The notes beneath the pieces were generated by a model. It made no database searches, was not told the origin of the DNA, and saw nothing but the letters and a program-made list of their open reading frames with translations. This document shows, piece after piece, positions 313-17,154 of a DNA stretch of 54,635 nucleotides (position 1 is its first letter; every line of letters begins with the position of its first letter). The position numbers and the translations under genes were made by a program. Origin of the DNA: a virus (lineage: Duplodnaviria > Caudoviricetes); IMG/VR virus record IMGVR_UViG_3300025543_000033, positions 1-54,635 of that record. One strand, written 5' to 3'.

Positions 313-348
313 TTTACATTTTCAGATTTTTACTTTATACTTATTATT

Positions 349-419
349 GCGGTTATAGAATAATGTTAGTTCGGTTGACTTCCAGTCAATAGGTTCAAGT
401 TCGATTCTTGATAACCGCT
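349..419 (+). tRNA. tRNA-Gly(TCC)
   Basis: Acceptor GCGGTTA/TAACCGC, anticodon arm GTTGA-CTTCCAG-TCAAT, T arm TCAAG-TTCGATT-CTTGA; D loop lacks GG; no encoded CCA. Confidence 0.9.
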
Positions 420-448
420 CTAACAATTAAAACGAAAGTGGGTTACAA

Positions 449-697
449 ATGGCAAGACCAAAATACAGAAACAGATTATTAACTATTCCAAGTATGAGAA
501 AGAAATGTAATACTTGTGGTAGTATCAAAGAAGTTCAACACAGACTAATCGTCGTTCCTAAAGATGTTCCAAAAACCAAGAAGTTCAAAGATTATCTTGA
601 TATACCGAATGTAGTGATTGAAAACTATTGTTCCGTAGAATGTTCAGGCGATGAGTTTATTAATAACTATTCACCAGAGGACTTCTACCAAGAATAA
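449..697 (+). CDS. Hypothetical zinc-binding protein
   Basis: CNTC...CSVEC; stop overlaps the next start. Confidence 0.7.
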   Translation: MARPKYRNRLLTIPSMRKKCNTCGSIKEVQHRLIVVPKDVPKTKKFKDYLDIPNVVIENYCSVECSGDEFINNYSPEDFYQE

Positions 698-1590
698 TGA
701 GAACACCAATCAGATACGCCGGTGGGAAGTCAAGAGCGTATGATTTCATTAGTAGTTATATTCCGTTCTGGCCAAGACCTAAAACTATCGTTAGTCCTTT
801 TATCGGTGGTGGTAGTTTGGAAGTTCGTTGGGCACACGAAATGGGAATTAATGTTGTGGGTTATGATGTGTTCAATGTATTGGTGAATTATTGGCAACAT
901 CAGTTATCTAATCCAAAAGGATTGTATGATATACTGAAAGGATTAGAACCTACGAAAGAACAATATGATGAGATTAAAGATATCTTATTACATTGGGATA
1001 AGGTTCAAGAGTTATTTAAAAATTGGAAGACCGACCATTACGACAGAGAGTCAAGAGAATTAGATGACTTGTTGGGTGCAGCATATTATTGGTTTAATCA
1101 TAACTTGTCATATGGCCCAATGTTCTTAGGTTGGTTTAGTTCTATCTTTATGAAGAAAGAATCATTGTATCAGAATAGTATAGAACGAGTAAGAGATTTT
1201 AATGTACCGAACTTAGAAGTAAATTGCGGGTCATTTGATGAAACGATTGTAGCCCACACAAATGACTTTCTCTATTGTGACCCGCCTTACTTTATGGAGA
1301 AGTCCGAAGACAATAAAATGTTTAAGGCCATTTATCCTAATAGCAACTTTGCGGTACATCACAATCATTTTGACCACGAGAAACTAAGAGACTTACTACA
1401 TAGTCATAAAGGTCAATTTATTCTCAGCTATAATGATTGTGAGTGGGTTAGAGAAAATTATAAAGGCTTCGAGTTTAAAACACCAGAGTGGAATTATAGT
1501 TTCCAAGCAGGTGAAACAAGAATTGGAAAGAATAGACAAGACGGGAATCTAAAAAAAGATTCGCATGAAATACTTATAATAAAGTTATGA
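697..1590 (+). CDS. D12-class N6-adenine DNA methyltransferase (Dam-like)
   Basis: PIRYAGGKS, SPFIGGGS SAM-binding motif, YCDPPY catalytic motif, FILSYND. Confidence 0.92.
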   Translation: MRTPIRYAGGKSRAYDFISSYIPFWPRPKTIVSPFIGGGSLEVRWAHEMGINVVGYDVFNVLVNYWQHQLSNPKGLYDILKGLEPTKEQYDEIKDILLHWDKVQELFKNWKTDHYDRESRELDDLLGAAYYWFNHNLSYGPMFLGWFSSIFMKKESLYQNSIERVRDFNVPNLEVNCGSFDETIVAHTNDFLYCDPPYFMEKSEDNKMFKAIYPNSNFAVHHNHFDHEKLRDLLHSHKGQFILSYNDCEWVRENYKGFEFKTPEWNYSFQAGETRIGKNRQDGNLKKDSHEILIIKL

Positions 1591-3059
1591 AAATATTAGG
1601 AATAAACGCACTTAACCACGACGCAGCAATAACACTTATTGAAGATAATAAGATATTGTTTGCTGGTCACGCTGAACGATATAGTGGTATCAAGAACGAC
1701 CCCAACTTAAACTTGGATATGTTTTGTGATATGTGGGACTTTGGAGTACCTAAGCGTGTAGTTTGGTTTGAACGACCAATGATTAAGAAACTCAGACAAC
1801 TACGAGCAGGACAATACTCAGAAGTGTTTAGTCGTCAGAACTCACCACAACGACACTTAAACGAAATAGTCAAACCAGTATTGACCAAAGGATTACAGAT
1901 TGATGAATATGTAGACCATCACTTGTCACACGCAAGTTCTACATACTTTACTTCACCTTATGATGAAAGTGCCGTTGTAGTGATTGATGCCATTGGTGAG
2001 TTCGATACAATATCTATATGGTATGCTAATGGTGGTAAACTAACTAAACGATATAGTCAAACTTATCCGAATAGTATTGGATTGTGGTATAGTGCGATTA
2101 CACAACGACTTGGACTAAAACCACAAGAGGACGAATACATACTTATGGGTATGGCAGCTTGGGGACAAGAGAACAAAGAACTACAATCAGAACTAAGAGA
2201 GTTGTTAAAACAAAATCTACATAGGGGTTGTTTAGATTGGGATTCAGAAGTATATCCAGACGACAATACTGAACAATGGAAGTTTGATGTAGCACACAAT
2301 ACACAAGTAGTATGTGAAGAACTGATATTAGATATATTTAGTAAACTACCTTTGTTGGTTCCAGAAACCACTAATGTTTGTTATAGTGGTGGTGTCGCAT
2401 TGAATTGTGTAGCCAATAGTTTGGTTGTTGAGAAGTATCCTAATTTATGGATACTACCTAATCCAGGTGACGCTGGTTCATCATTAGGTTGTGCAGCATA
2501 TATCAACAAACAACACTTAGACTTTGATACACCTTTTTTGGGATACAACATCAAAGGTGAGTATCCGGTTAAACCAGTATTGAAAGAATTATTAAGTGGT
2601 AACATAGTTGGTGTTGCCAATGGTAGAGCAGAATATGGGCCTCGTGCATTAGGTAATCGTTCATTGTTAGCAGACCCACGAGGTAACTTTGTAAAAGACA
2701 AGATGAACGAGATTAAGAATAGACAAAAGTTCAGACCTTTCGCACCATCAGTATTGGAAGAACACGCACACGAGATATTTGATATGCCTACCAAGAAGTC
2801 TCAGTTTATGCAATATGTAGCACCTTGTAAGTATCCAGATAAGTATCCAGCGATATGTCATATCGATAATACATCACGAGTTCAAACTGTGAGTGAGAAA
2901 GATAATCCAGGTTATTACAAATTGATTAAAGAGTTTTACAAGAAGACAGGTTGTCCAATGGTATTGAATACAAGTCTTAACATCAAAGGTCAACCAATCG
3001 TCAATGATGAAAATGACGCAAAAGAATTTACAAACAAATATGGAGTTAAAGTATTTTGA
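1587..3059 (+). CDS. Carbamoyltransferase (NodU/CmcH family)
   Basis: HDAA, ERYS..K, HHLSHA, DAIGE, GGVALNC, PGDAG, EYGPRALGNRS, RPFAP, LNTSLN. Confidence 0.93.
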   Translation: MKILGINALNHDAAITLIEDNKILFAGHAERYSGIKNDPNLNLDMFCDMWDFGVPKRVVWFERPMIKKLRQLRAGQYSEVFSRQNSPQRHLNEIVKPVLTKGLQIDEYVDHHLSHASSTYFTSPYDESAVVVIDAIGEFDTISIWYANGGKLTKRYSQTYPNSIGLWYSAITQRLGLKPQEDEYILMGMAAWGQENKELQSELRELLKQNLHRGCLDWDSEVYPDDNTEQWKFDVAHNTQVVCEELILDIFSKLPLLVPETTNVCYSGGVALNCVANSLVVEKYPNLWILPNPGDAGSSLGCAAYINKQHLDFDTPFLGYNIKGEYPVKPVLKELLSGNIVGVANGRAEYGPRALGNRSLLADPRGNFVKDKMNEIKNRQKFRPFAPSVLEEHAHEIFDMPTKKSQFMQYVAPCKYPDKYPAICHIDNTSRVQTVSEKDNPGYYKLIKEFYKKTGCPMVLNTSLNIKGQPIVNDENDAKEFTNKYGVKVF

Positions 3060-3886
3060 TGAATATAGGAATTATAGGACAAGGTTATGTCGGAACCGCA
3101 ATTAAACTTGGTTTTGAAAATCACTACAATGTATTGACTTATGATAAGTTTGATTTAGCAAAATCAACACATAGTAAGATATCAGATTTAGTAGAAGAAA
3201 CTAAAGTTATATTCGTTTGTGTTCCTACACCAATGAGAAAAGACGGAACTTGTTATACAGGTATTGTAGAAGAAGTTATCCGTGAGATTAACGAAACAGC
3301 AGATGACCACATCATTGTGATTAAGTCAACTATTCCACCAGGCACTACTGATAGAATTAACAAAGAGTATACTCACTCTACCGTGATATTCAATCCAGAG
3401 TTCTTAACGGAACAAAACTTCTTGGAAGATTTTAAAAATCAAAAAAGAATTATCTTGGGTGGTGATAGAAAAGGAACTAATCAACTTAGACAAATATATT
3501 CTAAGGTGTTTCCTAATGCTACAATCGTAAAGACAGGTGCTAAACACGCTGAAATGGTAAAGTATTTTACCAATTGTTTCTTGGCAACCAAAGTATCGTT
3601 TGCTAACGAAATGTATAATGTGTGTCAACAATTAGATTTAGATTACGACAAGGTTGTAGAGTATGCAATCTATGACGAAAGATTAGGTAAGTCCCATTGG
3701 GCAGTTCCAGGTCCCGACGGAGACTTTGGATATGGTGGACATTGTTTTCCAAAAGACTTATCAGCAATCATTAATTCATTTGAAACCTATGGATTATTAG
3801 AAGCAGTAGAAGAAGTAAATAACCAAGTTCGCAACAATAGAGATTGGGAACATATGGTTGGTAGAGCAGTATTGGAGGACGAATAA
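3056..3886 (+). CDS. UDP-glucose/GDP-mannose dehydrogenase family protein (short form)
   Basis: GQGYVG Rossmann motif, CVPTP, IKSTIPPGTT, FNPEFL, GYGGHCFPKD; lacks C-terminal UDP-binding domain. Confidence 0.9.
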   Translation: MMNIGIIGQGYVGTAIKLGFENHYNVLTYDKFDLAKSTHSKISDLVEETKVIFVCVPTPMRKDGTCYTGIVEEVIREINETADDHIIVIKSTIPPGTTDRINKEYTHSTVIFNPEFLTEQNFLEDFKNQKRIILGGDRKGTNQLRQIYSKVFPNATIVKTGAKHAEMVKYFTNCFLATKVSFANEMYNVCQQLDLDYDKVVEYAIYDERLGKSHWAVPGPDGDFGYGGHCFPKDLSAIINSFETYGLLEAVEEVNNQVRNNRDWEHMVGRAVLEDE

Positions 3887-4164
3887 TGGCAGAAAAGAAA
3901 AGATATTTAATCGAGATAACTTATCACGAAACAAAGAAAGTAGAAGAAGTTGTATTGGAAACTGATGACTTAGCGTGGTCAATGAAACAATATCAAAGAA
4001 ATCGTCAACCATTTCAATGGGAGATGAAAGAGGAAAACTTACCATTGTCTTTAAGTCACAAGATGGGTAAACCATTTCCAACCGAAGAATCAGATGGACA
4101 ATTAGAAATTCCATTTCCAACTGATTGTTGTGGGATGCCAGAATATTGTAGTTGTTGTGATTAA
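3886..4164 (+). CDS. Hypothetical protein
   Basis: GGAGG RBS; translationally coupled; Cys-rich C-terminus. Confidence 0.65.
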   Translation: MAEKKRYLIEITYHETKKVEEVVLETDDLAWSMKQYQRNRQPFQWEMKEENLPLSLSHKMGKPFPTEESDGQLEIPFPTDCCGMPEYCSCCD

Positions 4165-4173
4165 AAAAAGTTC

Positions 4174-4202
4174 TTGACTTTTATATTTATTTTTCGTATG
4201 TT
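4174..4202 (+). promoter_or_regulatory. Sigma70-type promoter upstream of tRNA-Thr/Ala
   Basis: A-tract, TTGACT-17 bp-TATGTT. Confidence 0.7.
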
Positions 4203-4248
4203 ATAAATCGATACCTAAAATGTATGAGAAAGGACATACGATAGGATT

Positions 4249-4321
4249 GCTTCCATAGCACAATTGGCAGTGCATTTGATTTGTAATCAAAAGGTTACTG
4301 GTTCGAGTCCAGTTGGGAGCT
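4249..4321 (+). tRNA. tRNA-Thr(TGT)
   Basis: GCTTCCA/TGGGAGC acceptor, TTTGA-TTTGTAA-TCAAA anticodon arm, ACTGG-TTCGAGT-CCAGT T arm. Confidence 0.95.
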
Positions 4322-4334
4322 CAACTAATACTAT

Positions 4335-4405
4335 GGGGCGTTAGTTAAATGGGATAACACTGCCCTTGCACGGCGGAATCAGGAGTTCGACTCTCCTACG
4401 CTCCA
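4335..4405 (+). tRNA. tRNA-Ala(TGC)
   Basis: GGGGCGT/ACGCTCC acceptor with G3:U70, CTGCC-CTTGCAC-GGCGG, AGGAG-TTCGACT-CTCCT. Confidence 0.95.
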
Positions 4406-4409
4406 CTAT

Positions 4410-4467
4410 GAGAGAGATGTTGTTTAGTCCAGTAATGTACACTTGGCAATATCCAACACTCTCTCTC
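4410..4467 (+). other. Long imperfect hairpin after tRNA-Ala
   Basis: GAGAGAGA-TGTTG...CAACA-C-TCTCTCTC plus inner CCAGT/ACTTGG pairing. Confidence 0.6.
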
Positions 4468-4477
4468 AAAAAAAGAC

Positions 4478-4507
4478 TTGACACAAATATAAAAAAAGTG
4501 TTAAATT
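4478..4507 (+). promoter_or_regulatory. Sigma70-type promoter
   Basis: A-tract, TTGACA-18 bp-TAAATT. Confidence 0.55.
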
Positions 4508-4550
4508 CTGGTTATATTAATTGTTATACTTCTAAGGAGGTGAAAAGGAA

Positions 4551-4649
4551 ATGGAACTAATAACACCAGTAATGATATTAGGATTAGTTGTTTTACACGC
4601 TTTAATAATTGGAGTGATGAATTGGATGACTTTCTTATTTCATAATTAA
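4551..4649 (+). CDS. 32-aa single-TM peptide (not in ORF track)
   Basis: AAGGAGG/AAGGA RBS; MELITPVMILGLVVLHALIIGVMNWMTFLFHN. Confidence 0.65.
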   Translation: MELITPVMILGLVVLHALIIGVMNWMTFLFHN

Positions 4650-4655
4650 TAATAT

Positions 4656-4727
4656 GCTCGGTTCGTCTAGCGGTCAGGACATCGCCCTTTCACGGCGGAA
4701 ACACGGGTTCAATCCCCGTACCGAGTA
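4656..4727 (+). tRNA. tRNA-Glu(TTC)
   Basis: GCTCGGT/ACCGAGT, TCGCC-CTTTCAC-GGCGG, ACGGG-TTCAATC-CCCGT. Confidence 0.95.
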
Positions 4728-4748
4728 CTAACAACAAAAGGAGATGAT

Positions 4749-4874
4749 ATGTCTAAAATAGAAATAGAACACTTAAAGAAAGTGAATAGTTCTTTAGAAA
4801 GAACTGAAAATAAATTGAAAGAAATAGAAATAAAATTAAAAGAAATAACCAAAACATTGGAGAGAATATGTTAA
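4749..4874 (+). CDS. 41-aa coiled-coil protein (not in ORF track)
   Basis: AAGGAG RBS; MSKIEIEHLKKVNSSLERTENKLKEIEIKLKEITKTLERIC; overlaps groES start. Confidence 0.55.
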   Translation: MSKIEIEHLKKVNSSLERTENKLKEIEIKLKEITKTLERIC

Positions 4875-5164
4875 AACCATTTGACGCAAGAGTAGTTGTT
4901 CAGAAACCTAAACGAGAAGAACAAACTGCAAGTGGAATTATATTACCGGATACCGTATCTGAACAAACACAAACTGCACAAGGTATTGTGATATCAGTTG
5001 GTCAAGGTTCAAGAAATATGACAACCGGTGAATATATGCCAATACCAATCAACGAAGGTGATACTATCGTGTATACGAAGTTTAGTGCAACAGAAATTAA
5101 TCACGAAGGCCAAGATTATTATGTTGTAGCTGAAAGAGATATCATCGCAGTAGTTGAGAAATAA
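4868..5164 (+). CDS. groES: Co-chaperonin GroES
   Basis: LKPFDARVVV, TASGIILPD mobile loop, SVGQG, GDTIVYTKFSATE, ERDIIAVV. Confidence 0.95.
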   Translation: MLKPFDARVVVQKPKREEQTASGIILPDTVSEQTQTAQGIVISVGQGSRNMTTGEYMPIPINEGDTIVYTKFSATEINHEGQDYYVVAERDIIAVVEK

Positions 5165-5165
5165 T

Positions 5166-5237
5166 GTGGTCGTGGCAGAAAAGTAATGCGTAGGATTGCA
5201 AATCCTATTTGTGTTGGTGCGAGTCCAACCGACCACT
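5166..5237 (+). tRNA. tRNA-Cys(GCA)
   Basis: GTGGTCG/CGACCAC, TAGGA-TTGCAAA-TCCTA, GTTGG-TGCGAGT-CCAAC (atypical T loop). Confidence 0.88.
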
Positions 5238-5248
5238 CAAAAAATTAC

Positions 5249-8689: not shown

Positions 8690-8718
8690 TTGACATTGTC
8701 ATTTTTTATTCGTAAGTT
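8690..8718 (+). promoter_or_regulatory. Sigma70 promoter with TGACATTGTCA palindrome
   Basis: A-tract, TTGACA-17-TAAGTT; ATG 5 nt downstream. Confidence 0.8.
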
Positions 8719-8963: not shown

Positions 8964-8971
8964 AAAAAAAC

Positions 8972-9000
8972 TTGACATTGTCATTTTTTATTTATAACTT
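8972..9000 (+). promoter_or_regulatory. Sigma70 promoter with TGACATTGTCA palindrome
   Basis: A9 tract, TTGACA-17-TAACTT; ATG 5 nt downstream. Confidence 0.8.
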
Positions 9001-14081: not shown

Positions 14082-14285
14082 ATGTATTTTGAAGTACAAG
14101 TTATATTCACGGAAGAAATCCAAACTAAAAGTGGTATTCGTGAGAAACAAAGAAGAAAACACTTATTAGTTGAGTGTGATTCAGTAACGGTAGCTGAGGC
14201 TACGGTCAATAGTTACTTAAAGGATGCACCATATCCTTTTGAAGTAGTGGTAGTTAAACAATCAAAAATATCGGGAGTGATTTAA
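14082..14285 (+). CDS. DUF4494-like protein
   Basis: YFEVQV..LVECDSVTVAEA..FEV..VKQSKISGVI pattern. Confidence 0.65.
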   Translation: MYFEVQVIFTEEIQTKSGIREKQRRKHLLVECDSVTVAEATVNSYLKDAPYPFEVVVVKQSKISGVI

Positions 14286-15370: not shown

Positions 15371-15928
15371 ATGGAAGATTTAAAAAAGTTACGACAACAA
15401 AAAGTTAGACAAAAATTACGATACCTTCAATTAGAATTATTGGAAACTAAAATTATTTACAAAAATTCATTGGAGCGTTTTCGTATCGACTTTTCACAAG
15501 AAGTCAACCCCGAAGAAGTAAAGAAACAGGCGGTTGAATCCAAAGACCCATATGAAGAAATCCAAACAGATGTATCGGAAGATTCATTTAAAAAAGTATA
15601 TCGTAAAGTAGCAAACAAACTTCACCCAGATAAGAAAGGTGGAGACTTGGAAAAGTTCAAACTTGCCAATCAAGCAAACAAGAACAAAGACTTTGGTGCT
15701 TTATTAGAAATGGCAGATGAATTAGAAATAGACTTTGAGTTATCCAATGAATTGATTGACGAGATGACTAAACAATGTAAAGCAGTAATTGATAATATTA
15801 CACAAATGAAAACCACAACTGCTTGGACTTGGGCACATTCCAAAGAAAGTGAACGAGAAGGTTTACGACAATATATAATGTCAACTATTATGCCTAAAAA
15901 AGATTTAACAGATAAAGAAAATGAATAA
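15371..15928 (+). CDS. J-domain (DnaJ-like) protein
   Basis: FKKVYRKVANKLHPDKKGGD.EKF. Confidence 0.85.
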   Translation: MEDLKKLRQQKVRQKLRYLQLELLETKIIYKNSLERFRIDFSQEVNPEEVKKQAVESKDPYEEIQTDVSEDSFKKVYRKVANKLHPDKKGGDLEKFKLANQANKNKDFGALLEMADELEIDFELSNELIDEMTKQCKAVIDNITQMKTTTAWTWAHSKESEREGLRQYIMSTIMPKKDLTDKENE

Positions 15929-15938
15929 AAGTCGCAGG

Positions 15939-16168
15939 TTCATTTTTCCAAAACTACTTGGTTTTTTAAGTTAGTCGTAAAGGGATGAGAGGTTTGGATA
16001 GAGCGACCAAACGAAAGTCCTAACACAAGACAGATATTACGCTATAAGTTAGGCTGGGTTGTAGACCAAAGAGTAGTGTAATACCACAAGATAGTGGATT
16101 GAGATTTGATGATATAGCATCAAGTCGGAAGAAAGTGAAATAAAAGACGGATAAGTCCGCGTGTTTTA
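15939..16168 (+). ncRNA. Candidate multi-helix non-coding RNA with RNase P-like core motifs
   Basis: About 250-nt gap with at least 6 helices, listed in findings. Confidence 0.6.
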
Positions 16169-16175
16169 TATTTAT
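16167..16175 (+). promoter_or_regulatory. Putative late promoter TATATTTAT
   Basis: Recurrent motif. Confidence 0.6.
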
Positions 16176-16197
16176 ATTAAAGGTGGAGAAAAGAATT

Positions 16198-17154
16198 ATG
16201 GAAAACTCAAAATATTTTTATATATGGATTGGATTGTCAGCCCTACTTATCGCAGGTAGTGCTGCAGCATTTTCAGTCTATGGTCTTGCTAAATTATTTA
16301 GTGGAGCATTTATATCGGTTGTGATTATGGCAAGTTCTTTGGAACTTGGTAAATTAGTTACAGCATCTTTCTTGTATCGTTATTGGAAAGTCATTAGTTG
16401 GTTTCAAAAAGTCTATATGACTTTCGCAACATTAGTTTTGATTGGGATTACATCAGCAGGTATCTTTGGATATTTGTCAAATGCATATCAAGGAGCAACA
16501 TTAGAATTTGAAAAACAATCCACAGAACTTATCGCAGTTGAAGAACGAATAGAACAATTAGAAGAAGACAAGGTATTTCTAAAAGGTGAATTAGAAGAAC
16601 AAGTTAATTCATTACCAGAAAATTATATCACGGCAAAAAGAAAACTAAGAGAAGATTATAATCCAAGAATACTTGCAATCAATGACGAGATATTGGAATA
16701 CAAAAAGACCAGAGCAGATTTAGAAATACAATTGGTATCTACGGGTGTTGATGTTGGGCCAGCAATTTATCTGGCAAGAACTTTTGGAACCGACATAGAT
16801 ACCGTGGTAAAGTTCTTTATCTTTATTTTGATATTTGTGTTTGACCCATTGGCAGTTATGTTGGTCGTGGCATACAACCAAGCACTTATATTGAGAGAAA
16901 AACAATTACCAGAAAAAAAGAAATCTTGGTGGTCAAGAATTTGGGAAATGTATGATGATAAGCATGAAGTAGACTTATCACAAGGTGCACACGAAAGTCG
17001 TGGATTTTATGCACTTCAAGAATTAGAAGAACTTGATGAAATAGCAGAACAAGAACTACCAGAACCACGAGAAGAAAACGACCCAACACCAATTGTAGAA
17101 AAAGTAGAAATAAATCCACAACCAACTGCTCGTGGTGGAGTTAGAGTAAAATGA
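16198..17154 (+). CDS. Membrane protein, 3 TM + coiled coil + TM
   Basis: AAAFSVYGL, LELGKLVTAS, TSAGIFGYLS, IFVFDPLAV; GGAG RBS favours ATG 16198. Confidence 0.8.
   Translation: MENSKYFYIWIGLSALLIAGSAAAFSVYGLAKLFSGAFISVVIMASSLELGKLVTASFLYRYWKVISWFQKVYMTFATLVLIGITSAGIFGYLSNAYQGATLEFEKQSTELIAVEERIEQLEEDKVFLKGELEEQVNSLPENYITAKRKLREDYNPRILAINDEILEYKKTRADLEIQLVSTGVDVGPAIYLARTFGTDIDTVVKFFIFILIFVFDPLAVMLVVAYNQALILREKQLPEKKKSWWSRIWEMYDDKHEVDLSQGAHESRGFYALQELEELDEIAEQELPEPREENDPTPIVEKVEINPQPTARGGVRVK

What the first reader, a model, noticed from the sequence alone, without database searches (positions are those of the whole stretch)
15939..16168. Structured ~200-nt RNA with a minimal RNase P-like catalytic-core topology
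Seen: a closing helix TTCATTTTTCC (15939-49)/GGAAGAAAGTGAA (16127-39) and a long helix ACTACTTGGTTT/AGACCAAAGAGTAGT. Hairpins are GTTTGG/CCAAAC, CCAC/GTGG and GATTTGATG/CATCAAGTC. GAAAGTCCTAAC (16013-24) pairs with GTTAGGCT (16048-55) leaving a bulged U, and CGTAA (15976-80)/TTACG (16037-41) crosses it as a pseudoknot, with CAAGACAGAT between. Known: RNase P RNA has GAAAGUCC forming P4 with a bulged U, pseudoknotted with P2, a J5/15 CAAG and an AGAURRAU joining strand. GGGATGAGAGGTTTGGATAGAGCGACC also resembles the CR-III/P13 segment. Inference: a drastically reduced or rearranged RNase P-like ribozyme, or a new phage ncRNA class, in a phage carrying tRNAs. The match is imperfect: no GAG before GAAAGUCC and no P5-P15 insert.
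Basis: partly seen in the sequence, partly recalled or inferred. Interest (0 to 1): 0.78.

Follow-up and report, generated by a model that had tools for sequence, protein, structure and literature searches.

The report
Orphan pseudoknotted RNA of marine phages
The spacer holds a real, conserved, folded non-coding RNA found in many uncultured marine phages, but it is not an RNase P: it looks like a new RNA class whose job is still unknown.

Summary
The 254-nt spacer 15929-16182 between a J-domain gene and a membrane-protein gene holds a real structured RNA on the + strand. I collected 74 distinct full-length homologues, 210 to about 400 nt, from viral and marine metagenome contigs.

On 37 insert-free sequences my structure pairs 93.2% of cells, against 31-42% when partners are slid. 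25 of 35 pairs change on both sides.

The P4-like helix CCUAAC/GUUAGG is complementary but almost invariant, so it is untested. The crossing helix CGTAA/TTACG (30.8% paired) and the long helix (65.1%, no better than shuffles) are not supported. Those bases belong to other, covarying helices.

The real pseudoknot is CCUAAC/GUUAGG crossed by a 9-10 bp helix, 16036-45 with 16073-82. In 36 of 74 homologues an 80-150 nt domain sits exactly at the supposed bulged U.

No Rfam family matches, RNase P included.

The invariant loop GUUGUAGA recurs in a second hairpin in 25 of 36 insert-bearing forms.

Best reading: an orphan phage ncRNA class that presents repeated loops to an unknown partner. RNase P membership is about 3% likely.

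The parts
15935..15947 (+). 5' conserved strand (window GCAGGUUCAUUUU; group 1 GUAGAGUUUUCAUU; group 2 GUGAUUUCUUGUU). Its pairing partner is unsettled.
Evidence: Conserved in alignments A1 and A2.
15948..15961 (+). Hairpin Ha: CCAA / TTGG
   Evidence: Replaced by CCAC-UUCG-GUGG, CCAC-UUAG-GUGG and ACCC-GAAA-GGGU in other homologues. On the MAFFT alignment A2: 83.4% paired against 16-64% slid, 2 of 5 pairs change on both sides.
15992..16012 (+). Hairpin Hb: GTTTGG / CCAAAC, with loop ending GYGA. Preceded by the conserved GAGUGA-like strand 15983-15990.
   Evidence: helix 1: 93.2% paired, 3 of 6 pairs change on both sides. Variants by eye: GUCUGG/CCAGAC, GUCGG/CCGAU, GUCGU/ACGAC.
16013..16018 (+). 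Conserved A-rich joiner (A/G)AAAGU. Insertion site 1 lies right after it in 36 of 74 homologues.
   Evidence: The insert-closing helix starts at the U (UCC../..GGA; UUC../..GAA).
16019..16024 (+).
   Evidence: Complementary to 16048-53. 4 pairs are invariant in 37 of 37 sequences. Three sequences have CCUAU(U)/(A)AUAGG.
16025..16035 (+). A-rich linker L1. It is insertion site 2 in some homologues, with hairpin GAUUAUUC../..GAAUAAUC or GAAAUAGAAG/UUUCUAUUUC.
16036..16045 (+). S2 5' strand, ATTACGCTAT
   Evidence: helix 4: 9 of 9 modelled pairs change on both sides, 97.5% paired
16048..16054 (+). S1 3' strand GTTAGG, plus C16054 opposite G16017
   Evidence: helices 2-3. S1 and S2 cross, which makes an H-type pseudoknot.
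16055..16068 (+). Hairpin Hc: TGG / CCA around the 8-nt loop GUUGUAGA (16058-16065)
   Evidence: helix 5: 100% paired, UGG/CCA in 10 sequences against GAG/CUC in 27. CGGG/CCCG occurs in insert-bearing forms. The loop was required by two of my search patterns. It is also present in all 9 distinct sequences found through the protein and in 8 of 8 true elements found with a pattern that does not include it.
16073..16082 (+). S2 3' strand, GTAGTGTAAT
   Evidence: helix 4
16084..16097 (+). Variable hairpin Hd: CCAC / GTGG. Absent in some homologues.
   Evidence: helix 6: 5 of 5 pairs change on both sides. Absent in L011-, L024- and L097-type sequences.
16103..16126 (+). Hairpin He: GATTTGATG / CATCAAGTC with loop AUAUAG (UUAUAG in most of group 1)
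   Evidence: helix 7: 5 of 5 modelled pairs change on both sides, 85.8% paired. TATAG was required by the metagenome pattern, but it is also present in the protein-derived set.
16127..16160 (+). 3' conserved tail: GGAAGAAnnUGAAAUAA, then GAUnAGU and a weak GC hairpin. The likely 3' end of the RNA lies here.
   Evidence: Alignments. An RNA-library contig ends at 16146 (weak). A terminator-like site was found only on the - strand.
16165..16197 (+). Not part of the RNA: the promoter-like motif TATTTATAT and the Shine-Dalgarno of the membrane-protein gene
   Evidence: The motif TAYTTATWR has 20 of its 21 window copies on the + strand, several just upstream of genes and of tRNA-Gly.

Best explanation
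The spacer encodes a free-standing, modular structured RNA on the + strand, about 225 nt here (roughly 15935-16160) and up to about 400 nt in relatives. It belongs to an orphan class carried by a widespread lineage of uncultured marine myophage-like viruses.

Shown:
- A conserved core of hairpin Hb, then the joiner AAAAGU, then an H-type pseudoknot (S1 CCUAAC/GUUAGG crossed by the 9-10 bp S2).
- Hairpin Hc sits inside the pseudoknot's third loop.
- Hairpin He follows the pseudoknot.
- A 5' hairpin Ha, and two sites that accept extra domains.

Inferred:
- The RNA works through its sequence-invariant single-stranded parts, above all the loops of Hc (GUUGUAGA) and He (AUAUAG/UUAUAG), which share U-R-U-A-G.
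- The larger variants add a second hairpin with exactly the same GUUGUAGA loop. The simplest mechanism is therefore a scaffold or decoy that presents two or three copies of one loop motif to a partner (a protein, or another RNA's loop). The pseudoknot would fix their geometry.
- It is probably made as the tail of the upstream chaperone-gene transcript (Hsp20, small ORF, J-domain gene). A promoter-like motif separates it from the downstream gene.

It is not an RNase P RNA.
For: - Conservation: about 70-79% identity in a spacer of relatives whose flanking membrane protein is 68-82% identical.
- 74 distinct full-length homologues.
- Structure count: 93.2% of cells paired against 31-42% slid, 25 of 35 pairs changing on both sides, 0 of 500 shuffles reaching any of the five measures.
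- Strand: 101 G.U cells against 21 A.C cells, and all neighbouring genes are on +.
- No ORF of 30 aa or more lies within the spacer; one 32-aa ORF starts at 16161 and runs on into the membrane-protein gene.
- No Rfam family, tRNA or tmRNA.
- A second GUUGUAGA hairpin occurs in 25 of 36 insert-bearing variants, at a place my patterns did not select.
- Variable domains sit at fixed sites, with covarying closing helices.
- Synteny is fixed in 90 of 91 distinct elements, while the immediately adjacent gene varies: J-domain gene upstream in 25, downstream in 24; Zn-ribbon ORF downstream in 6; membrane gene directly downstream in 54. This argues against a leader dedicated to one gene.
- The promoter-like motif TAYTTATWR lies between the RNA and the next gene.
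- One contig of an RNA library covers 15808-16146 without a difference.
Against: - No function, partner or transcript end is shown.
- The RNA-library evidence is contigs only, which cannot show strand, ends or level, and DNA may be present in such libraries. In run X1 the spacer was not covered.
- Most homologues were fished with exact patterns that contain TAGGC, GGTTGTAGAC and TATAG, so the invariance of these is partly by construction. The unbiased samples are small: 9 distinct sequences and 8 elements.
- Alignment A5 was fitted to the model's structure, which favours it.
- S1 is nearly invariant, so the pseudoknot rests on complementarity plus 3 sequences with a double change.
- The 5' and 3' ends and any closing helix are unsettled.
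- Close relatives L014-L016 lack the RNA altogether, so it is dispensable for the lineage.
- The membrane-protein gene is always within one gene downstream, so a cis role is not excluded.
Confidence: 0.55

Rival explanations
1. A drastically reduced or rearranged RNase P-like ribozyme that processes the phage's tRNAs.
For: - AAAGUCC follows a hairpin, as J3/4-P4 follows P3 (that layout is recalled, not from a call).
- In insert-free forms G16017-C16054 plus CCUAAC/GUUAGG leaves a single bulged U.
- This helix is almost invariant, as a catalytic core would be.
- The contig carries 5 tRNA genes.
Against: - No RNase P, MRP or type-T model scores at E <= 10 on the window stretch or at E <= 5 on six homologous loci.
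- The P2-like helix pairs 30.8% of cells, the same as slid controls.
- The strand 5' of the P4-like 3' strand pairs downstream (S2, 9 of 9 covarying pairs), giving a different topology from P2/P4.
- Three more hairpins follow the '3' strand of P4', where RNase P has only P1.
- In 36 of 74 homologues the bulged-U position opens an 80-150 nt domain, and the U-C-C pairs with that domain's 3' end.
- The tRNA genes lie 10 kb away.
- Relatives L014-L016 lack the RNA.
Confidence: 0.03
2. A cis-acting element of the surrounding transcripts. It could be a 3'-UTR structure that ends, processes or stabilises the upstream chaperone-gene mRNA. It could also be an antitermination or translation-control element for the membrane-protein gene that always follows.
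For: - Always the same strand and the same place, at the end of the GDDRY-ORF/J-domain unit.
- The membrane-protein gene follows within at most one gene in all elements whose downstream flank is held, apart from 5 J-flanked elements in which no membrane-gene match followed, the one element without any flank match, and those cut by a contig edge.
- RNA-free relatives have a G-rich stretch followed by a run of T, a possible terminator (my reading by eye), and a small ORF at this place.
- The conserved 5' strand RUGAGUG can pair with UAYUUAU just before the next start codon in 90.8% of cells, against 33-60% slid.
Against: - That long-range pairing shows no covariation beyond shuffles (223 of 500 shuffles at least as high). 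Its 3' strand is a motif that recurs upstream of other genes and of a tRNA, so it is conserved for another reason.
- The immediately downstream gene differs between homologues.
- 210-400 nt with a pseudoknot, invariant loops and modular expansions is far more than a terminator or stabiliser needs.
- No conserved intrinsic terminator on the + strand.
Confidence: 0.27
3. A DNA-level signal (promoter array, replication or packaging site) or a short protein-coding gene, with the folds incidental.
For: A promoter-like motif does lie at the 3' edge. The region is AT-rich and conserved.
Against: - 25 of 35 pairs keep pairing through changes on both sides.
- G.U outnumbers A.C by 101 to 21, which is strand-specific and meaningless for duplex DNA.
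- No ORF of 30 aa or more lies within the spacer.
- Insertions of 80-150 nt are tolerated only at two sites, and they fold on their own.
Confidence: 0.03

Closest known systems
RNase P RNA (Rfam RF00010, RF00011, RF00373, RF00009, RF02357; accession numbers recalled)
   Same: The heptamer AAAGUCC directly 3' of a hairpin. A nearly invariant helix with one bulged U in the insert-free forms. A pseudoknotted core. Variable peripheral domains.
   Different: No covariance-model match. No P2. The pseudoknot partner lies downstream, not upstream. Helices follow the 'P4' 3' strand. The bulged-U site is an insertion site. No CR-II/III or CR-IV equivalents were identified.
Large orphan ncRNAs associated with phages (GOLLD, ROOL; named from the listing and from recall)
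   Same: Phage-borne, found by comparative genomics in metagenomes, with a conserved core plus optional domains, function unknown.
   Different: These are in Rfam and did not match. This RNA is smaller (210-400 nt), has a different architecture, and lies 10 kb from the tRNA cluster.
Candidate structured RNAs of IMG/VR viruses (Fremin and Bhatt 2023, PMC10690425; I read passages only)
   Same: Same data source (IMG/VR), same kind of evidence (covariation in viral intergenic regions). 8,495 unnamed candidates are reported.
   Different: I could not check whether this element is among them, because the lists are in supplementary files that were closed. The main text has no passage with 'RNase P', 'DnaJ' or 'heat shock'.
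Group I intron core (P3-P7 pseudoknot with P8; topology recalled)
   Same: The order S1 5' - (optional domain) - S2 5' - S1 3' - hairpin - S2 3' is the same as P3 - (P4-P6) - P7 - P3' - P8 - P7'.
   Different: No Rfam Intron_gpI match. The insert-free forms have no P4-P6 domain. The element lies between two complete ORFs, with no exon context.

Membership tests
RNase P RNA | Scores against a curated RNase P covariance model | tested here: not met
   cmscan at the gathering threshold on the whole window found 5 tRNAs only. E-value mode, E <= 10, on 15850-16260 gave no RNase P row among its 7 rows. E <= 5 on six homologous loci, 17,248 nt, gave none among its 3 rows.
RNase P RNA | P2/P4 pseudoknot: the strand 5' of the P4 3' strand pairs with a strand upstream of P3 | tested here: not met
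   CGTAA/TTACG pairs 30.8% of 182 cells, against 14-47% slid. The same 3' bases form S2 with a downstream strand, 9 of 9 pairs covarying.
RNase P RNA | Contiguous P4 with a universally kept single bulged U | tested here: not met
   Present in the 38 insert-free sequences. In 36 of 74 an 80-150 nt domain starts at that U, and U-C-C pairs with G-G-A at the domain's end (UUC with GAA in others).
RNase P RNA | P4 pairing itself (CR-I with CR-V) | tested here: inconclusive
   5 of 7 modelled pairs never vary. One pair is AU:10, UA:3, other:24.
RNase P RNA | P1 closing the molecule directly after the P4 3' strand | tested here: not met
   Hc, S2 3', Hd and He follow the S1 3' strand. The proposed closing helix pairs 64.2% of cells against 42-67% slid.
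RNase P RNA | Cleaves pre-tRNA 5' leaders | not testable with these tools
   Needs a bench assay.
tmRNA / tRNA | tRNA-like domain and tag reading frame found by ARAGORN or Rfam | tested here: not met
   ARAGORN finds 5 tRNAs at 349-5238 and nothing at 15929-16182. No Rfam tmRNA row.
Group I intron | Match to the Rfam group I model, and a P4-P6 domain | tested here: not met
   No row. The linker L1 is 10-14 nt in insert-free forms.
Cobalamin or other riboswitch | Match to an Rfam aptamer model, and a fixed downstream gene class | tested here: not met
   Only a chance-level PreQ1 row on the - strand (E 2.5, 14.4 bits against a gathering score of 39). The downstream gene varies, and a promoter-like motif intervenes.
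Orphan structured phage ncRNA (this class) | Conserved secondary structure with compensatory changes in independent contigs | tested here: met
   25 of 35 pairs with changes on both sides, 102 such cells against 19.2 +/- 3.9 in shuffles.

The most novel reading that the evidence does not exclude
A new class of large, pseudoknotted phage RNA that acts in trans by displaying two or three copies of a U-R-U-A-G loop.

The loops UUGUAGA and UUAUAGU read like anticodon loops with U33, a GUA or AUA (tyrosine) anticodon and a purine at position 37. That likeness is my own reading, untested.

The RNA could therefore be a decoy or guide for a host or phage factor that recognises such loops. Candidates are an anticodon nuclease, a tRNA-guanine transglycosylase-like enzyme or a translational repressor. 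It could also be a new ribozyme whose invariant joiner AAAAGU and S1 helix form the active site.
Probability: 0.1. Interest if true: 0.85.

Novelty: categorically new. Interest (0 to 1): 0.55.

Why it matters
Large structured RNAs with conserved pseudoknots and invariant loops are rare. Those found so far have repeatedly turned out to be ribozymes, riboswitches or RNP cores.

This one sits in a very abundant, uncultured marine phage lineage. The neighbouring membrane protein alone has at least 6,590 relatives at E <= 1e-5 among the 8,000 candidates scored.

Its modular growth, including a duplicated loop motif, gives a concrete handle for finding a partner.

Showing that it is not RNase P also matters. 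A phage RNase P RNA would have been a first, as far as one search found: no paper listed describes one. The evidence here removes that claim.

It may already be listed, unnamed, among the 8,495 IMG/VR candidates of PMC10690425. I could not check this.

Tried and rejected
- blastn of 15371-17154 against 50,697 phage records: no match.
- CM R1 against the whole genomes of Flavobacterium phage immuto and Pelagibacter phage Mosig, whose genomes hold distant relatives of the membrane protein: best E 0.0135 and 0.277, taken as chance (the first re-scored at 0.0099).
- Pattern scan of 185,579 prokaryote genomes: 15 stretches, none confirmed by the CM (best 16.4 bits, pattern region only). No host clue came from it.
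- Pattern GGTTGTAGACN{25,55}GATATAGCA in viral contigs: the 3 new loci were chance matches by eye.
- Pattern GACCAAACAAAAGTCC: the 12 new loci gave no CM hit.
- RNAalifold on a plain MAFFT alignment gave a poor structure, because the variable helices were misaligned.
- An all-against-all column scan was noisy.
- Metatranscriptomes: four runs laid, contigs only. X4 covers the RNA, X1 does not, and X7 and X8 cover only the flanks. No statement on level, ends or strand is possible.
- Hammerhead idea for CUGAUGA in the insert: rejected, because L035 has CCGAUGA with a compensating partner and there is no Rfam row.
- Cas12a-repeat mimic idea: several papers listed in the search for the 8-mer GUUGUAGA are Cas12a detection assays, by their titles and abstracts; that the 8-mer is part of a Cas12a guide repeat is recalled. 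Rejected, because no UCUAC partner strand precedes the motif in either hairpin.
- Alternative pairing CUACAA/UUGUAG: not kept in L069-type sequences (by eye).
- A single outer helix UCGU/ACGA is seen in some groups but not all (by eye).

Full report
**Setting**

The window is one IMG/VR viral contig of 54,635 nt, estimated 30% complete. All large ORFs are on the + strand. It carries a baseplate wedge protein, a CobS-like ATPase and a carbamoyltransferase, and 5 tRNA genes at 349-5238.

The finding lies in the 254-nt spacer 15929-16182. Upstream is a 185-aa ORF with a weak DnaJ match (27.1 bits against a cut-off of 27.8). Downstream is a 318-aa membrane and coiled-coil protein with no Pfam family. 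Further upstream are Hsp20, thioredoxin and a non-specific endonuclease.

- The + strand folds at -60.9 kcal/mol, z = -3.74, with 0 of 200 shuffles as good.
- The - strand gives z = -2.80.
- No ORF of 30 aa or more lies within the spacer.

**Homologues**

The membrane protein retrieved 15 viral loci.
- 12 carry a spacer 70-79% identical to this one.
- 3 (L014-L016) carry a 61-aa ORF instead.

By their names the records include marine and TARA assemblies.

After removing duplicates and one chance hit (L059, dropped), 74 distinct full-length elements remain. 38 have no insert and 36 have an insert.

Caveat: the patterns demand TAGGC..GGTTGTAGAC and TATAG, so the invariance of these blocks is partly built in. 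Two samples did not depend on the loop:
- The 9 distinct sequences found through the protein all have them.
- A scan with GACCAAACAAAAGTCC found 8 true elements, all already in the loop-based set, plus 12 chance loci that the covariance model rejected.

**Structure**

I built a 175-position covariance model of the core (R1) and realigned 37 insert-free sequences to it (A5). I then counted my structure on that alignment.
- 93.2% of 1,235 cells form standard pairs, against 31-42% when the 3' partners are slid by 1-3 columns.
- 25 of 35 pairs change on both sides.
- None of 500 shuffles reaches any of the five measures.

| Helix | Pairs changing on both sides |
|---|---|
| Hb (GTTTGG/CCAAAC) | 3 of 6 |
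| S2 (16037-45 with 16073-81, extendable by A16036-U16082) | 9 of 9 |
| Hc (16055-57 with 16066-68) | 2 of 3 |
| Hd (CCAC/GTGG) | 5 of 5 |
| He (GATTTGATG/CATCAAGTC) | 5 of 5 |

S1 (CCUAAC/GUUAGG plus G16017-C16054 across U16018) has 5 invariant pairs. One pair is AU:10, UA:3, other:24. One varies on one side only.

S1 and S2 cross, so the core is an H-type pseudoknot. An A-rich first loop (16025-35) precedes S2. Two nucleotides separate the S2 5' strand from the S1 3' strand. Hairpin Hc lies in the third loop.

A5 is fitted to the model, which favours it. By eye, however, the S2 strands are quite different sequences in different groups:
- GGAUACUAC/GUAGUAUCU
- AGUAAUAUAG/CUAUAUUGCU
- GUAAUCUUAAC/GUAAGGUUAC
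- GCACUAU/AUAGUGC

A 5' hairpin Ha (CCAA/UUGG here) is replaced by CCAC-UUCG-GUGG or ACCC-GAAA-GGGU elsewhere.

G.U cells outnumber A.C cells by 101 to 21, so the RNA is read from the + strand.

- The crossing helix CGTAA/TTACG pairs 30.8% of cells, like slid controls.
- The long helix ACTACTTGGTTT/AGACCAAAGAGTAGT pairs 65.1%. All 500 shuffles do at least as well, and a slide of +1 gives 68.6%.
- The closing helix pairs 64.2%, against 42-67% slid.

The bases of the first two belong to Ha, Hc and S2.

**Inserts**

In 36 of 74 elements an 80-150 nt domain sits between AAAGU and CCUAAC.
- UUCUGAUGA/UCAUCAGAA
- UCCCGAUGA/UCAUCGGGA
- UCC-UUG(C)G/CCAA-nn-GGA

A second site after CCUAAC takes a hairpin, either GAUUAUUC../..GAAUAAUC or GAAAUAGAAG/UUUCUAUUUC.

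25 of the 36 inserts contain a further hairpin, AAGUA-GUUGUAGA-UGCUU (or UACUU). Its 8-nt loop is identical to that of Hc. My search patterns did not select this copy.

The He loop is AUAUAG or UUAUAG. All three loops therefore share U-R-U-A-G.

**Known families**

- Rfam at gathering thresholds finds only the 5 tRNAs.
- In E-value mode, 411 nt around the finding give 7 chance-level rows: snoRNA, miRNA, and PreQ1 on the wrong strand.
- Six homologous loci, including large-insert forms, give 3 chance rows.
- No RNase P, MRP, tmRNA, intron, ribozyme or riboswitch model appears.
- ARAGORN finds nothing here.

RNase P membership therefore fails on four counts: the model match, P2, the topology after P4, and the integrity of the bulged-U helix. 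Only the pairing of the P4-like strands stays untested, because it does not vary.

**Context and likely mode of action**

Among 91 distinct elements the order is always a small 'GDDRY' ORF, [J], RNA, [J], [Zn-ribbon ORF], membrane gene, all on one strand. The one exception has no flank match and is probably the chance hit.

| Position | Neighbour | Elements |
|---|---|---|
| Immediately upstream | J-domain gene | 25 |
| Immediately upstream | GDDRY ORF | 47 |
| Immediately downstream | Membrane gene | 54 |
| Immediately downstream | J-domain gene | 24 |
| Immediately downstream | Zn-ribbon ORF | 6 |

The conserved block ATACTTATTA (TATTTATAT here, 16169-77) between the RNA and the next start codon matches the motif TAYTTATWR.
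- 20 of its 21 window copies are on the + strand, against 14.0 +/- 3.2 copies expected in total.
- Copies lie just upstream of tRNA-Gly and of the genes starting at 1587, 9006, 41304, 49265 and others.

I read this block as a promoter-like signal, not as part of the RNA. The RNA would then be the tail of the upstream unit.

One contig of an RNA library runs from 15808 to 16146 without a difference. This is only a weak hint.

Taken together, a modular RNA with a rigid pseudoknot and repeated identical loops is best explained as a trans-acting scaffold or decoy for a loop-binding partner. A cis role on neighbouring transcripts is the main rival.

**Distribution**

- No match among 50,697 phage records by DNA.
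- The membrane protein has distant relatives (28-41% identity) in jumbo Xanthomonas and Stenotrophomonas phages, Flavobacterium phage immuto and Pelagibacter phage Mosig.
- Neither of the two genomes I scanned, immuto and Mosig, has the RNA.
- It is absent from the prokaryote genome collection.

**Literature**

A full-text search listed the comparative-genomics surveys. I read passages of PMC10690425. It reports 8,495 unnamed candidates from IMG/VR and has no passage with 'RNase P', 'DnaJ' or 'heat shock'. Its supplementary lists, which might include this element, were closed.

No paper listed for 'RNase P RNA' together with phage terms describes a phage-encoded RNase P RNA (listing only).

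**Verdict**

This is a real and apparently new RNA class. The RNase P reading is rejected, and the function is open.

Noticed in passing
window 338-346, 1571-79, 8989-97, 16169-77, 27250-58, 38452-60, 41269-77, 49224-32, 50576-84: The motif TAYTTATWR (often cttaTATTTATTA) has 20 of its 21 copies on the + strand. It lies 3-60 nt upstream of gene starts and of tRNA-Gly, and in some relatives 5-7 nt before an ATG. It looks like a phage promoter, possibly giving leaderless mRNAs.
   Followed up: partly
window about 8690-8710 and 8965-8990; also 4165-4184: Sigma-70-like TTGACA/TTGACT boxes occur, with 'aaaaa(g)cTTGACAttgtca' present twice. This suggests a host with classical -35 promoters rather than a Bacteroidota-type host.
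   Followed up: no
window 16198-17154; L203 3923-5068; L204 3941-4921: The membrane and coiled-coil protein belongs to a very large marine family, with at least 6,590 relatives among the 8,000 candidates scored. Its distant relatives in Flavobacterium phage immuto and Pelagibacter phage Mosig lie next to endolysin/holin or glucosaminidase genes. This hints at a role in lysis.
   Followed up: partly
L006 2690-2735 against L004/L012 and window 15905-15930: Where the J-domain gene is missing upstream of the RNA, the last ~25 nt of its coding sequence (AAAAAACGAAAACC...) are still there as non-coding DNA. The J gene therefore seems to have been lost or moved while the RNA stayed.
   Followed up: partly
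L014, L015, L016 (about 2780-3000 of each locus): Close relatives without the RNA carry a 61-aa ORF (MTDINKKF...) at the same place. A G-rich stretch followed by T's and the same TATTTATTA motif precede it.
   Followed up: no
L004 1118-1211 and relatives (type A insert): The insert holds two copies of UCAUCAG that can each pair with CUGAUGA. Covariation in L035 favours the distal copy, but an alternative fold is possible.
   Followed up: partly
L204 8260-8598 (Pelagibacter phage Mosig record): The record annotates a phage-encoded tmRNA (SsrA) about 3.3 kb downstream of its membrane-protein homologue. It is unrelated to the RNA studied here.
   Followed up: no
window 14082-14285: A 67-aa ORF has a weak DUF4494 match (E 1.7e-4, below the cut-off). 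It sits between the endonuclease and thioredoxin genes.
   Followed up: no
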